Source of the DNA: a virus | DNA: 32,971 bases | Virus genome (UHGV): UHGV-0159523 | Strand: one strand, 5' to 3' | Notes under the pieces: model-generated | Told to the model about the DNA's origin: nothing | The model's database searches: none | The model's input: only the letters and a program-made list of their open reading frames with translations | In this document: piece by piece, positions 25,897-28,751 of the stretch | Layout: the number at the start of each line of letters is the position of its first letter | Position numbering within the stretch: the first letter of the stretch is position 1 | Translations under genes and position numbers: made by a program

Positions 25897-25934
25897 GCTA
25901 CTTAAAGTAGCGAATTGCAACTACTTAAAATAGA
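25897..25934. promoter_or_regulatory. OR-like operators: two copies of a 15-bp palindrome (gctacttaaagtagc and actacttaaaataga)
   Basis: First copy is a perfect odd-length palindrome; second is a near copy 23 bp away centre to centre; both lie in the 71-bp gap between divergent cro-like and cI starts. Confidence 0.55.
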
Positions 25935-25935
25935 A

Positions 25936-26676
25936 ATGACGAGCGTATGTGATGTGAGTAATCTTCTACCTATGGTAGAAGAACAGAAGTATCCAGATTT
26001 CGCCAAGAGACTAAACGAGTTAATGACAAACAAGGGAATTTCTGTCACCCAACTCAAAAGTCTTGTTGGCGTTACATATGAAATGGCGCGGCGATACACA
26101 ATCGGCGCAGCGAAGCCTCGTGCCTCTGTCATGAATAAACTTGCGTTGGCTCTGGGGGTATCGGCTTCATATTTAGAATATGGTGTTGGCGAGAGAGAAG
26201 GATGTAAGGAAATGGCAAGCATCCCCAATCCAACAAAACCCGACGTATACAGGATAGAAGTTTTAGATCTTAGCGTTAGCGCAGGACCTGGAACCTATAT
26301 GCTTTCAGACTATGTTGATGTGCTCTACGCCATTGAGTTCACAACAGAACATGCCCGTTCTCTTTTCGGTAACCGTTCTCAGGATGATATTAAGGTTATG
26401 ACTGTAAATGGCGATAGTATGTCCCCTACTCTCGTTTCCGGAGATCGACTGTTTGTCGACATTTCTGTTCGTCACTTCCAGACTGATGGAATTTACTCTT
26501 TCGTTTACGGTAAGACTTTTCATGTTAAACGTCTTCAAATGCAAGGTGACAAGCTAGCCGTTCTTTCGGATAACCCTGCCTATGAGAAATGGTACATCGA
26601 TGAAAAATCGCAGGATCAGCTTTATGTAATGGGCAAGGCGTTGATTCATGAGTCAATAAAATACAATCGGTTATAG
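25936..26676 (+). CDS. CI-like prophage repressor with C-terminal S24 (LexA-like) peptidase domain
   Basis: N-terminal HTH (FAKRLNELMTNKGISVTQLKSLVGVTYEMARRY); C-terminal VNGDSMSPTL and FHVKRL Ser/Lys dyad; ATG at 25936 may be leaderless, TTG at 25915 is the track start. Confidence 0.85.
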   Translation: MTSVCDVSNLLPMVEEQKYPDFAKRLNELMTNKGISVTQLKSLVGVTYEMARRYTIGAAKPRASVMNKLALALGVSASYLEYGVGEREGCKEMASIPNPTKPDVYRIEVLDLSVSAGPGTYMLSDYVDVLYAIEFTTEHARSLFGNRSQDDIKVMTVNGDSMSPTLVSGDRLFVDISVRHFQTDGIYSFVYGKTFHVKRLQMQGDKLAVLSDNPAYEKWYIDEKSQDQLYVMGKALIHESIKYNRL

Positions 26677-26691
26677 TTCTAAGGGCATATA

Positions 26692-27039
26692 ATGGCTAGT
26701 GAGCAGGGATTCGAAAAGATTAACATGGATATGTTGGTCTCTTATTTCTCAGAAAAGAATATATATCTAAAATGTACACTATGTGGACACGACAGATTGA
26801 CTGTGCCTCAAGTCAGCGCGAATGTGGGCATGCCATGTACTATGAAACTTGGTAGTTATGTGAATGTTTTTACTGAAAAAAGCATTTATTCTGATACTGC
26901 TAACCAGTATTACTTTTCACTAATATGCAACAATTGTGGAAATGAAATTCATATAAATGCGTTTTCAGTTTTGAACTGGGTAAATGAAAAGTTCCCAGCA
27001 AAAACGGAAGATGAAAAAAATGCCGACGCCGCAAAATAA
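26692..27039 (+). CDS. Small protein with two CxxC pairs (zinc-ribbon-like), 115 aa
   Basis: CTLCGH and CNNCGN about 50 residues apart; AT-rich; immediately downstream of cI on the same strand (rexA position). Confidence 0.5.
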   Translation: MASEQGFEKINMDMLVSYFSEKNIYLKCTLCGHDRLTVPQVSANVGMPCTMKLGSYVNVFTEKSIYSDTANQYYFSLICNNCGNEIHINAFSVLNWVNEKFPAKTEDEKNADAAK

Positions 27040-27391
27040 TGTAGTACCATTTAATAGTGAACTTCCCACAATTAGAAGACACGGTGGAGATGGCGGAGGT
27101 GATGACATGCTTGAAGCCCGAGTCGCTAAGTTAGAAGCGAATGTTGAGGATATAAAAACAAATCTCGCAGAGATGAGAGCTGACATTCGTGATTTGCGAA
27201 ACGCTCTCTCCGACACCCGACGCGATGTCGCTGTTATCCTTCAAAAACAAATAGATATAGATGAAAAGTTGTCAAAAAAACCTAGCCTAAGTGAAGTCAA
27301 CAGCGCTATTTCATCAGCCGTAAATAAACAGATCGCATGGACTGTTGCAACAGGCTTGGCGATTTTAGGTCTCGCCAAATTTATGTTTTGA
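27011..27391 (+). CDS. Coiled-coil protein with single C-terminal TM anchor (XhlA-like architecture); start 27011 or 27020
   Basis: Heptad-like charged region EARVAKLEANVEDIKTNLAEMRADIRDLRNAL followed by IAWTVATGLAILGLAKFMF at the extreme C-terminus; overlaps upstream gene end. Confidence 0.5.
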   Translation: MKKMPTPQNNVVPFNSELPTIRRHGGDGGGDDMLEARVAKLEANVEDIKTNLAEMRADIRDLRNALSDTRRDVAVILQKQIDIDEKLSKKPSLSEVNSAISSAVNKQIAWTVATGLAILGLAKFMF

Positions 27392-27696: not shown

Positions 27697-27733
27697 CTAC
27701 TTTTTGTAGTTGATTTTTGCAACTTTAAGTAGC
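27697..27733. promoter_or_regulatory. OL-like operators: two copies related to the OR palindrome (ctactttttgtag, gcaactttaagtagc)
   Basis: Second site matches OR 15-mer at 13/15; first shares CTACTT...GTAG arms; 23-bp spacing as at OR; additional half-site aagtagc at 27774-27780. Confidence 0.45.
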
Positions 27734-27861
27734 AATATCATTTTACCGACAACGAACAGGCAGGACGCCCACGAAGTAGCCGCCTGGGGCATATGAAGTC
27801 CAGGATGATTCGTTGAGTCATGTTGTGCCACTAGGCACTCATGTTAAAGCAGGTGTATGAA

Positions 27862-28137
27862 ATGAAAGTCCAGATTTTAAACAATAACTGTGAAGTCGTT
27901 TGGTCATACGACATAGCCGCCCCTGTAGATCAGAGCGGCGATAGCTGGACCAATGGGAAACATCAGATTATGGCTGGAGTTGTGTTCTCTTTACGCCGTG
28001 CTTTGGAACAGGCTGAAGTATTTCCATCAGACCCTGAATGGAAATGGCCTTTTTCTATTTGTCCAAATTCGGAGAGCACATTTCAGAAAATTGGTCAGAA
28101 AGTCGCACTCGAAGAGCATCAGCCAACTGTTTCCTGA
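27862..28137 (+). CDS. Hypothetical early-left protein, 92 aa from ATG 27862
   Basis: SD AGGTG 7 nt upstream of ATG 27862; first ORF downstream of OL-like region; 3' end overlaps a convergent ORF. Confidence 0.35.
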   Translation: MKVQILNNNCEVVWSYDIAAPVDQSGDSWTNGKHQIMAGVVFSLRRALEQAEVFPSDPEWKWPFSICPNSESTFQKIGQKVALEEHQPTVS

Positions 28138-28300
28138 TTTTTTCAGGTAACTCGTCGGCATCGCAGAAACAACAACGCTCGATCATGTTGAAAGCCGATT
28201 CGTAGAACTGTTTCTGCTGAGTGTCGCTGAGACAGGAAAAGAGCGACGTTACGATGATTTTATTAATTGCATTATCAAGTTCTTTTTCATCAAAAGTCAT
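28055..28300 (-). CDS. Hypothetical small protein, 81 aa, antisense to the early-left operon
   Basis: SD AAGGA 7 nt upstream of ATG 28298-28300; Cys cluster ERCCFCDADE; overlaps the 3' end of 27862..28137 by 83 nt. Confidence 0.4.
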   Translation of the reverse strand: MTFDEKELDNAINKIIVTSLFSCLSDTQQKQFYESAFNMIERCCFCDADELPEKIRKQLADALRVRLSDQFSEMCSPNLDK

Positions 28301-28505
28301 TTGATTTTCCTTTTATGTATACGGGCTTAAAAGGATACCACCGAGCCTGAAGTGGTGAAAAGACAGGCACATAACAGCTAAGTATTTTCAACCAAAGAGA
28401 ATCCTTAGCGTTGTGGTGAATGCGGCTCAGCGCACGCGGGTTAAGGTTGAGGCTGACAGTCGACCTTCTGTGGATACCCACCCGTCTGGTGTGCAACCTT
28501 CGCCA

Positions 28506-28543
28506 GGCACCGGGAGGCACCCGGCACCCGGCACCCGGCACCA
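28506..28543. repeat. Tandem heptamer repeat GGCACC(C/G/A), five copies
   Basis: Read directly: ggcaccg gga ggcaccc ggcaccc ggcaccc ggcacca; within a GC-rich region lacking a convincing gene. Confidence 0.7.
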
Positions 28544-28751
28544 CAACTTTATGCTGTGTGTAGTCCTGGCGGTACCAGTTTGTACCCTTGCTTCCGGCTG
28601 GTACCGTCCTTTTTACAAAACAGAGAAGAGCATCACCGGACGACGGGCTCATAACCCAATCCAACCGGGCGGCTGCCACCGCAGGTGTTCTTCTCTGTTT
28701 TGTGGAGAAACTAATCGGCCTTGCAGGGTCGATATGATGAGGAGCAGCAAA

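What the first reader, a model, noticed from the sequence alone, without database searches (positions are those of the whole stretch)
27862..28300. Convergent, overlapping small genes just downstream of the OL-like region
Seen in sequence: a plus-strand 92-aa ORF (SD AGGTG) and a minus-strand 81-aa ORF (SD AAGGA, Cys cluster) converge and overlap by 83 nt. Transcription of one would be antisense to the other. Inference: this could be a mutually antagonistic pair (for example lysogeny-expressed versus lytic-expressed, or toxin/antitoxin-like antisense control), or one ORF is spurious.
Basis: partly seen in the sequence, partly recalled or inferred. Interest (0 to 1): 0.4.

Follow-up and report, generated by a model that had tools for sequence, protein, structure and literature searches.

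The report
Linked convergent gene pair behind PL
Two small prophage genes that face each other and share 83 bases are both genuine, always travel together, and occupy the positions that N and the superinfection-exclusion gene sieB hold in phage lambda, so one is probably made by the resting prophage and the other only when the phage wakes up.

Summary
A plus-strand ORF (27862-28137, 91 aa) and a minus-strand ORF (28055-28300, 81 aa) converge and overlap by 83 nt just downstream of OL/PL.

Neither ORF is spurious. Against a copy about 68% identical, substitutions fall on each ORF's own third codon positions (pN 0.18, pS about 0.83 in both).

The pair is kept convergent and overlapping (83 to over 230 nt) in nine lineages from Escherichia/Shigella, Salmonella, Klebsiella, Yersinia and metagenomes. 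Its ATG-to-ATG length was 439 nt in all eight lineages measured. The full-length plus gene occurs only with this minus gene.

The 34 nt upstream of the minus gene are nearly identical to the sequence upstream of sieB in lambda and P22. The layout therefore matches lambda: PL, N, then sieB facing back. The same upstream element precedes more than 40 unrelated small genes.

Most likely the minus gene is a prophage-expressed accessory gene and the plus gene is the first early-left gene. If so, the PL transcript would run antisense across the whole minus gene.

Expression and protein functions are untested.

The parts
27697..27732 (.). OL-like operators: CTACTTTTTGTAG at 27697-27709 and CAACTTTAAGTAG at 27720-27732
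   Evidence: Repeat families D1 and I1 link them to the cI/cro operators at 25898-25933. Coordinates were read.
27710..27738 (+). Candidate PL promoter: TTGATT, 17 nt, CAATAT. This is inferred. It falls below the scan threshold.
   Evidence: It overlaps the operators. SfV has TTGACA-17-ATAATG at the same place. It was not reported by the consensus scan.
27750..27815 (+). Conserved, portable leader element in the nutL/putL position, with a covarying hairpin (27782-27786 pairs with 27799-27803)
   Evidence: (covariation CCTGG/CCAGG, CCGGT/ACCGG, CTCGG/CCGGG). There is no Rfam hit. Homology to HK022 putL is not established.
27862..28137 (+). Plus gene, 91 aa (SfV orf33, PHROG 3195). It is the first ORF after PL, the position of lambda N and P22 gene 24.
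   Evidence: Purifying selection: pN 0.18, pS 0.85 over 27862-28054. Homologs appear in nine lineages.
28055..28300 (-). Minus gene, 81 aa (PHROG 3311), predicted three-helix bundle, in the position of sieB
   Evidence: pN 0.18, pS 0.83 over 28138-28300. Homologs in Klebsiella, Salmonella and Yersinia and more distant ones. AlphaFold2 pLDDT 83.
28055..28137 (.). The 83-nt shared 3' region. Constraint switches from the plus frame to the minus frame at about 28060-28075. There is possible true dual coding in 28081-28116.
   Evidence: Entropy profile. Site table and wobble test: 5/20 versus 4/54 invariant, p=0.054; the post hoc sub-core gives 5/12, p=0.007.
28308..28335 (-). Leader hairpin 2 of the minus gene (UCCUUUUA, 12 nt, UAAAAGGA). 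Its 3' arm contains the SD.
   Evidence: The stem covaries over lineages. 58 of 60 distinct leaders carrying this element have a hairpin of at least 5 bp here, with about 30 different arms.
28337..28370 (-). sieB-type upstream element GTGCCTGTCTTTTCACCACTTCAGGCTCGGTGGT, which includes inverted repeat/hairpin 1 at 28356-28337
   Evidence: 32 of 34 nt invariant against the lambda and P22 sieB upstream regions. More than 120 IMG/VR matches ahead of diverse cargo genes. Present in 1986 of 5426 E. coli genomes.
28552..28614 (+). Homolog of the 3' half of the K-12 Rac sRNA KilS, with an intrinsic terminator (stem 28568-28609, T5 at 28610-28614). It is the first terminator met by a PL-sense transcript.
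   Evidence: Alignment with the annotated kilS of K-12 shows compensatory stem changes. Fold -28.6 kcal/mol, z -2.7. Weak STnc100 and DicF Rfam hits nearby.

Best explanation
Shown:
- The two ORFs are both real protein genes. They form one conserved, co-inherited cassette.
- The cassette sits in the early-left region of a lambdoid (SfV/CPS-53-type) prophage, in the places held by N (or P22 gene 24) and sieB in lambda and P22.
- The plus gene is the first ORF downstream of OL/PL.
- The minus gene points back towards PL. It carries the same 34-nt upstream element as lambda/P22 sieB, followed by a covarying hairpin that here includes its Shine-Dalgarno sequence.
- There is no terminator between the genes. 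The first PL-sense terminator lies beyond the minus gene, at about 28610.

Inferred:
- In the repressed prophage PL is off. The minus gene is then transcribed from its own sieB-type promoter as a lysogen-expressed accessory (moron) gene.
- After induction or infection, PL transcription makes the plus protein first. That transcript runs head-on through the minus gene, its leader and its promoter.
- Transcriptional interference and a long antisense duplex would then shut the minus gene down. This resembles the way the P22 antisense RNA sas acts on sieB.
- Conversely, minus-gene transcripts are antisense to the 3' end of the plus mRNA and would damp leaky PL expression.

Most likely protein roles (speculative, about 0.3): the minus protein is an exclusion or defence-type factor made by the lysogen. 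The strictly linked plus protein is the phage's own early countermeasure or escape function, as Esc is for SieB.
For: Both genes are real.
- Codon-position and dN/dS signatures are specific to each frame.
- Both genes are kept in nine lineages down to roughly 30-50% protein identity.
- The ATG-to-ATG length is 439 nt in all eight lineages measured.
- SD motifs lie in front of the plus ATG in three unrelated upstream contexts.
- The minus protein folds confidently (pLDDT 83).

They are a linked unit.
- A full-length plus homolog occurs in 27 of 27 element-bearing IMG/VR loci whose cargo is the minus family. It occurs in 0 of 86 with other cargo, nine of which keep only a 14-codon stump.
- The pair also occurs together in a different genomic context, next to lysis genes (L179).
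- The conserved block runs exactly from the plus SD to about 72 nt upstream of the minus ATG.

Position and promoter homology.
- The operators are shown.
- The lambda and P22 sieB upstream regions share 32 of 34 nt with 28370-28337.
- In lambda, N and sieB abut convergently. In P22, gene 24 and sieB lie 20 nt apart. In Rac, ydaF and sieB overlap by 4 nt.
- In 120 loci the element and its cargo are antisense to the early-left genes: upstream ORFs are 298 to 21 on the other strand.

Antisense coverage. The first PL-sense terminator is the KilS-like hairpin at 28568-28614.

Precedent. P22 sas is a 105-nt cis-antisense RNA that controls sieB translation (PMC12197685 and PMC7067206).
Against: - No transcript, TSS or translation data for this locus could be found. 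The Shigella M90T TSS table held nothing for it.
- No convincing sigma-70 hexamers can be read in the conserved element. The consensus scan finds none there. Instead it reports hairpin 1 with its T-run as terminator-like on the minus strand. The promoter assignment therefore rests on homology to sieB and on my recollection that the P22 sieB promoter was mapped there (Ranade and Poteete 1993, not held in the library).
- PL itself is below the scan threshold.
- Minus-family genes exist without a plus partner (L183, L184; a remnant only in L185). The plus gene is occasionally frameshifted or truncated (L005, L006, L140, L173). The pairing is therefore not obligatory.
- Both proteins lack any known family, so the protein roles are conjecture.
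- Evidence for selection on the overlap itself is weak (p=0.054).
Confidence: 0.6

Rival explanations
1. These are two unrelated accessory genes that merely lie next to each other. The 3' overlap is an incidental result of tight packing and of weakly constrained C-terminal tails. It has no regulatory meaning.
For: - The overlap lies in the least conserved part of both proteins: 43% nucleotide divergence, against 30-32% elsewhere.
- The length of the plus tail varies freely (91, 107, 122, 127 and 153 aa). Where the tail is extended, the sites evolve as minus-only coding.
- Convergent abutting genes are the norm in this slot, for example lambda N/sieB and Rac ydaF/sieB.
Against: - The full-length plus gene is strictly linked to the minus family: 27 of 27 against 0 of 86.
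- The pair moved together to another context.
- The module length is 439 nt in all eight lineages measured.
- Invariant minus wobble bases are enriched in 28081-28116.
- Whatever the proteins do, the convergent layout without an intervening terminator makes RNA overlap unavoidable.
Confidence: 0.2
2. The pair is a toxin-antitoxin or abortive-infection pair. One protein, or its mRNA, neutralises the other. The antisense overlap acts as in type I systems with convergent 3'-overlapping genes.
For: - The two genes are strictly co-inherited.
- Their transcripts would be convergent and complementary.
- Prophage immunity-proximal slots often hold such systems (general knowledge).
Against: - There are no hits to TA or defence models in Pfam, NCBIfam or PADLOC.
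- Both proteins are acidic and soluble. Neither is a small hydrophobic peptide or a nuclease-like fold.
- Either gene can be missing or broken in natural isolates, which is hard to reconcile with addiction.
Confidence: 0.1
3. The plus protein is the phage's N-type antiterminator, as its position implies. The conserved leader (27750-27815) is its nut site, and the minus gene is simply this phage's sieB analogue.
For: - The plus ORF is the first ORF after PL and is preceded by a conserved structured leader.
- A terminator follows at about 28610, before yfdP and the other early-left genes. Some antitermination mechanism is therefore needed.
Against: - The plus protein is acidic and has no arginine-rich motif (sequence).
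- The leader is also found after the gene pair in Yersinia, and on its own in more than 800 E. coli genomes.
- The plus gene is absent from most phages that share the leader and the early-left genes.
- Natural frameshift variants of the plus gene exist.
Confidence: 0.05
4. One of the two ORFs is a non-coding shadow of the other.
For: Annotation pipelines call only one of them per genome. PGAP and the SfV authors call the plus ORF. RAST-type annotation of vB_EcoM-720R4 calls the minus ORF.
Against: - Each ORF shows frame-specific purifying selection in its own non-overlapping part.
- Both are conserved over nine lineages.
- Minus-family members are found by profile search in further taxa.
Confidence: 0.02

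Closest known systems
The lambda N / sieB and P22 gene 24 / sieB arrangement, with the P22 sas antisense RNA
   Same: - The order and orientation match: OL/PL, first early gene, then a convergent gene facing back, then the remaining early-left genes.
- The 34-nt element upstream of the backward gene is nearly identical (32 of 34 nt).
- There is no terminator between the convergent genes, so PL transcripts are antisense to the backward gene.
   Different: - Neither protein is homologous to N/gp24 or to SieB. There is no PF14163 hit and no Arg-rich motif.
- The genes overlap by 83 nt here, against 0 nt in lambda and a 20-nt gap in P22.
- No in-frame Esc-like internal product is evident.
- Here the two genes are co-inherited as a pair, whereas N and sieB recombine independently.
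Prophage 'morons': lysogen-expressed accessory genes antisense to lytic operons, as described for Salmonella prophages in PMC7067206
   Same: A small gene of unknown function with its own upstream element, oriented against the surrounding lytic operon and next to the immunity region.
   Different: - Classical morons carry their own terminator. This one ends inside the neighbouring gene.
- It comes with a fixed partner gene on the other strand.
Lambda OOP RNA versus cII, and type I TA loci with convergent 3'-overlapping genes (own knowledge)
   Same: Convergent transcription units whose 3' ends are complementary, which allows mutual antisense control.
   Different: Here both partners encode conserved soluble proteins of 81-91 aa. 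Neither is a small RNA or a hydrophobic toxin.
K-12 Rac region: racR, ydaG, ydaF, sieB, kilS, kilR
   Same: The architecture is the same, including a diverged copy of the sieB upstream element and a KilS sRNA/terminator just beyond it in the PL sense.
   Different: The cargo genes differ (ydaF/ydaG and SieB). The overlap is 4 nt rather than 83 nt.

Membership tests
sieB locus of lambdoid phages (slot and regulatory element) | The gene lies inside the PL operon, between the first early gene and the remaining early-left genes, and is oriented opposite to PL and cI | tested here: met
   Window layout compared with lambda, P22 and Rac.
sieB locus of lambdoid phages (slot and regulatory element) | A conserved sequence lies upstream of the gene (the region where the sieB promoter was mapped, by my recollection of Ranade and Poteete 1993) | tested here: met
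   32 of 34 nt are invariant between window 28370-28337 and the lambda 34395-34428 and P22 11402-11435 regions.
sieB locus of lambdoid phages (slot and regulatory element) | The protein is a SieB homolog (Pfam PF14163, membrane-associated, about 190 aa) | tested here: not met
   No Pfam, NCBIfam or PADLOC hit. The product is 81 aa, acidic and a helical bundle. It is therefore not a SieB family member, only a tenant of the same slot.
sieB locus of lambdoid phages (slot and regulatory element) | Expression from its own promoter in the lysogen, and exclusion of superinfecting phage | not testable with these tools
   No expression or phenotype data were found.
N-type antiterminators (lambda N, P22 gp24) | An N-terminal arginine-rich RNA-binding motif | tested here: not met
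   The plus protein begins MKVQILNNNCEVVWSYD and is acidic by my count of charged residues (about -4; sequence). It has no family hit.
N-type antiterminators (lambda N, P22 gp24) | The first gene after PL, preceded by a nut site (boxA plus a boxB hairpin) | tested here: inconclusive
   The position criterion is met. The leader has covarying hairpins, but no boxA is recognisable and there is no Rfam match.
Dual-coding (antiparallel overlapping) genes | Both frames are under purifying selection | tested here: met
   This holds outside the overlap: pN/pS of 0.18/0.85 for the plus gene and 0.18/0.83 for the minus gene.
Dual-coding (antiparallel overlapping) genes | Constraint on both frames within the shared nucleotides | tested here: inconclusive
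   Minus wobble sites are invariant at 5 of 20 positions in the overlap, against 4 of 54 outside (p=0.054). The sub-core 28081-28116 gives 5 of 12 (p=0.007, chosen post hoc). The plus tail beyond 28132 is unconstrained.
Type I / type II toxin-antitoxin systems | A recognisable toxin or antitoxin fold or family, or a small hydrophobic toxin | tested here: not met
HK022 put RNA (for the leader at 27750-27815) | A two-stem structure homologous to putL, directly after PL | tested here: inconclusive
   The position matches. Only ACGAAC and CAGGAUGA are shared with putL, and the latter falls in a different structural place.
KilS sRNA (K-12 Rac, b4833), for window 28552-28614 | Sequence and terminator homology to the annotated kilS, in the same position relative to the sieB element | tested here: met
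   Alignment A9 shows a 21-nt identical block and compensatory changes in the terminator stem. The position is shown and the fold. The 5' half is not alignable.

The most novel reading that the evidence does not exclude
The sieB-type 34-nt element, together with its covarying hairpin, may be a portable expression cassette. It would mark a hypervariable accessory-gene slot antisense to PL in enterobacterial lambdoid prophages. It is present in about 37% of complete E. coli genomes and carries more than 40 unrelated, uncharacterised small cargo genes.

On this reading the plus/minus pair is a new two-protein exclusion-and-escape module. The prophage-made minus protein would block phage development. 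The first early protein of the same phage would neutralise it. Mutual antisense transcription would enforce that only one is made at a time.
Probability: 0.25. Interest if true: 0.7.

Novelty: new member of a known kind. Interest (0 to 1): 0.5.

Why it matters
Annotation. Pipelines keep only one of the two genes in any genome. A conserved protein family (PHROG 3311 or PHROG 3195) is therefore lost every time. This is a clean, evolution-backed case of two real antiparallel overlapping genes.

Biology. The locus extends the classical lambda/P22 N-sieB-sas layout to a new, co-inherited gene pair.

A wider slot. In passing, the sequence upstream of sieB turns out to be a widespread portable element ahead of dozens of unknown small genes. 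These sit at the one position in a lambdoid prophage that must be silent in lytic growth and can be active in lysogeny. That slot is a practical place to look for new exclusion, defence or counter-defence proteins.

Tried and rejected
- Family and structure searches gave nothing beyond PHROGs of unknown function. I tried Pfam, NCBIfam, PADLOC and PDB sequence search on both proteins and on distant homologs.
- The plus model was too poor to search (pLDDT 49.6).
- Two scans of genome contigs found no relatives.
- Apparent 'divergent' plus homologs P0043 and P0050 turned out to be 1-nt frameshift variants, not true divergence.
- I looked for a sigma-70, sigma-54 or activator-type promoter in the conserved element by eye and by scan. 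No convincing hexamers emerged. An idea that the loop CAGGCT is the -10 is weakened by Rac, which has CGGGCT there.
- An integron attC-like reading of hairpin 1 was considered and dropped. The core motifs do not fit in most lineages.
- SD sequestration as a general function of hairpin 2 was rejected. It holds for the minus-family leaders, but in many other cargos the SD lies outside the stem.
- The boxA-like look of the hairpin-2 loop is a recollection only and was not tested.
- HK022 putL homology of the PL leader was examined and not established.
- The Shigella M90T TSS tables hold no entry for this locus.
- The SfV genome paper could not be read.
- STMMW_20121 of ST64B (PMC7067206) could not be tied to this slot.

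Full report
**What the window is.** The region is 99.6% identical to Shigella phage SfV in reverse orientation. It belongs to the SfV/CPS-53-type lambdoid prophages common in E. coli. In window orientation the order is:
- cro on the minus strand;
- cI at 25915-26676, plus strand;
- two extra ORFs at 26692-27391;
- an intergenic region with operator repeats;
- the two ORFs of the finding;
- a GC-rich stretch;
- yfdP, yfdQ, yfdR, yfdS, yfdT, xis and int, all on the plus strand.

This is the early-left (PL) side of a lambdoid phage.

**Observation.** It is correct in every detail.
- The plus ORF is 27862-28137, 91 aa. A longer 98-aa reading starts at 27841. The SD AGGTG lies at 27851-27855.
- The minus ORF is 28055-28300, 81 aa, with SD AAGGA at 28312-28308 and cysteines C43, C44 and C46.
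- The overlap is 28055-28137, 83 nt.
- The operators CTACTTTTTGTAG (27697-27709) and CAACTTTAAGTAG (27720-27732) repeat the cI/cro operators.
- TTGATT-17-CAATAT (27710-27738) is the likely PL. It is inferred by position and by comparison with SfV's TTGACA-17-ATAATG, and it falls below the scan threshold.
- The plus start is 27862. Recombinant relatives with unrelated upstream DNA join exactly at that ATG, and each brings its own SD.

**Are both ORFs genes?** Annotators disagree. PGAP and the SfV authors call only the plus ORF. The annotation of vB_EcoM-720R4 calls only the minus ORF. Each ORF has its own PHROG family, 3195 and 3311.

A truly diverged copy (L007, about 68% nucleotide identity, alignment without gaps) settles the question.
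- In the plus-only part (27862-28054) the 61 substitutions fall 17/7/37 on plus codon positions 1/2/3. In the plus frame pN is 0.18 and pS is 0.85.
- In the minus-only part (28138-28300) the 49 substitutions fall 15/4/30 on minus codon positions. In the minus frame pN is 0.18 and pS is 0.83.
- A chi-square test against an even spread gives p of about 1e-5 and 3e-5 (my arithmetic on the counts).
- All competing frames carry stops in these regions.

A profile search then found minus-family proteins in Klebsiella, Salmonella and Yersinia, and more distant ones.

In every lineage down to L179 and L181 the plus homolog lies convergent and overlapping. These lineages have plus identity of about 50% and E-values of 3e-21 and 3e-5 in the minus-family profile search. 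The overlaps are 110, 158, 161, 173, 197 or more than 230 nt. The plus-ATG to minus-ATG distance is 439 nt in all eight lineages measured.

Among the distinct sequences from the IMG/VR and other loci retrieved, the minus ORF is always intact and the plus ORF is frameshifted in three. Selection of those loci was through the minus protein, so this asymmetry is only indicative.

**The overlap itself.**
- Plus position 1 faces minus position 1, plus position 3 faces minus position 2, and plus position 2 faces minus position 3.
- The constraint signature switches from plus-type to minus-type at about 28060-28075, where the minus ORF ends.
- The overlap is the most diverged part of the module: 43% against 30-32% elsewhere.
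- In relatives whose plus ORF reads on to 122-153 aa, the extension evolves as minus-only coding. The long tails are therefore unconstrained read-through.
- Within 28081-28116 several four-fold minus wobble bases are invariant across eight lineages, and the facing plus residues (V81, A82, E84) are conserved.
- Invariant wobble sites number 5 of 20 in the overlap against 4 of 54 outside (p=0.054). In the post hoc sub-core they number 5 of 12 (p=0.007).

True dual constraint over about 35 nt is therefore suggested but not proven.

**Linkage.** The conserved block runs from the plus SD to about 72 nt upstream of the minus ATG. The flanks are unrelated between lineages.

Among 120 IMG/VR loci that carry the minus-gene upstream element:
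- a full-length plus homolog is present in 27 of 27 whose cargo is the minus family;
- it is present in none of the 86 with other cargo, nine of which keep only the first 14 plus codons.

In L179 the pair sits next to a lysis cassette rather than next to cI.

More distant minus-family genes occur without a plus partner: L183 and L184, with only a remnant in L185. The two genes are thus a co-inherited unit, but the minus family is older or wider than the pairing.

**What the minus gene's upstream region is.** Sense to the minus gene, the leader reads TTTYACC, then hairpin 1 (ACCAC-N10-GTGGT, 28356-28337), then hairpin 2 (28335-28308), SD and ATG. Both hairpins covary across eleven lineages.

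Only about a quarter of those precede the minus family. The others precede at least 40 different small ORFs with the same layout. The ten commonest cargos have no Pfam family above threshold.

Relative to the element, upstream long ORFs lie on the other strand 298 to 21. The nearest downstream long ORF is usually on the opposite strand as well (96 of 109 loci), consistent with a repressor gene there as in the window and in lambda, P22 and Rac. ORFs beyond it are mostly co-directional. The slot is therefore always antisense to PL.

BLAST then showed the same core in lambda (34395-34428) and P22 (11402-11435), directly upstream of sieB. Across window, lambda, P22, L181 and L263, 32 of 34 nt are invariant.
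- In lambda, sieB (34482-35036, plus strand) and N (35037-35438, minus strand) abut convergently.
- In P22, sieB and gene 24 lie 20 nt apart.
- In K-12 Rac, sieB and ydaF overlap by 4 nt, with a diverged copy of the element.

A longer 67-nt query spanning the element and a typical hairpin 2 matches 1986 of 5426 complete E. coli genomes. Hence the plus gene stands where N stands and the minus gene stands where sieB stands.

From memory, Ranade and Poteete (1993) mapped the P22 sieB promoter and found the lambda one by homology. I could not read that paper. I also could not recognise canonical hexamers, so 'promoter' is inferred. Hairpin 2 follows the core in 58 of 60 distinct leaders, with about 30 different stems. 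It contains the SD in the minus-family leaders but not in many others.

**Downstream end of the plus transcript.** Window 28552-28614 (plus strand) is homologous to the 3' half of the annotated K-12 Rac sRNA KilS. The homology includes compensatory changes in a 13-bp terminator stem followed by T5. No terminator lies between the two genes. A PL transcript therefore covers the whole minus gene, its leader and the conserved element in antisense before it can terminate.

**Mechanism proposed.** The shown and inferred steps are separated in the Best explanation section. The precedent is P22. There the sieB mRNA is controlled by the cis-antisense RNA sas, made by the superinfecting phage, and the exclusion protein SieB is countered by Esc (PMC12197685 and PMC7067206; the details of Esc are my own knowledge).

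By analogy, and because of the strict linkage, I favour the following roles at low confidence. The minus protein is an acidic three-helix bundle (net charge about -5 by my count; pLDDT 83), and I take it to be the lysogen-expressed effector. The plus protein would be the early antidote or escape function.

**What it is not.**
- It is not SieB, N or a known TA or defence family.
- The Cys cluster is not conserved in distant homologs, so it is unlikely to be a metal site that defines the family.
- The K-12 CPS-53 remnant lacks the module.

**Verdict.** The locus is a new gene pair in a known lambdoid architecture. Its interest is raised by the portable sieB-type element and its many unknown cargos.

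Noticed in passing
window 28337-28370 (minus strand), and loci L187-L306: The 34-nt sequence upstream of the minus gene is the sieB upstream element of lambda and P22. It behaves as a portable cassette. A longer query spanning the element and a typical hairpin 2 matches 1986 of 5426 complete E. coli genomes. It is always antisense to the early-left operon. It is followed by a covarying hairpin and then by more than 40 different unrelated small ORFs with no Pfam family.
   Followed up: partly
window 27750-27815 (+): A conserved leader lies directly after the PL candidate, with a covarying hairpin (27782-27786 pairs with 27799-27803). Its 35-nt core is 100% identical in many E. coli genomes. In Yersinia it lies after the gene pair rather than before it. 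It is a candidate nut/put-type antitermination element. Resemblance to HK022 putL is limited to ACGAAC and CAGGAUGA, and there is no Rfam match.
   Followed up: partly
window 28552-28614 (+), within the stretch 28413-28737 that PGAP calls a frameshifted hypothetical protein: This is a homolog of the 3' half and terminator of the K-12 Rac sRNA KilS (b4833), with compensatory stem changes. Weak Rfam STnc100 (27.8 bits, 28415-28528) and DicF-like hits lie in the same stretch. The 'pseudogene' is more likely an sRNA and terminator region (the tL1 position).
   Followed up: partly
window 28505-28545 (+): A short direct repeat of GGCACCC units (caccgggaggcacccggcacccggcacccggcacc) lies upstream of the KilS-like part. 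L007 and L175 share CACCGGGAGGCACCCGGC there. Its function is unknown.
   Followed up: no
window 26692-27391 (+): Two overlapping ORFs (115 and 135 aa; PHROGs 4293 and 3556) sit between cI and OL, in the rexAB position. They are absent from SfV itself. The first has a CxxC pair. The second is a coiled coil with a C-terminal hydrophobic segment. They are probably a cI-co-transcribed accessory module.
   Followed up: no
loci L263, L188, L208, L234 and L295 (IMG/VR): These are recombinants in which only the first 14 codons of the plus gene survive (MKVQILNNNCEVVWA*). They are followed by a different PL-sense ORF beginning MTARRPREEK, which is Arg-rich and possibly N-like. That ORF converges on, and appears to overlap, a different cargo gene (MTKEEKILYLF.., 63 aa). 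This shows a recombination junction inside the plus gene.
   Followed up: partly
locus L004 (E. coli WP4-S18-ESBL-08): A prophage remnant in which a deletion fuses the minus ORF region to a truncated tail-fibre gene. PGAP there calls a 95-aa extended version of the minus ORF.
   Followed up: no
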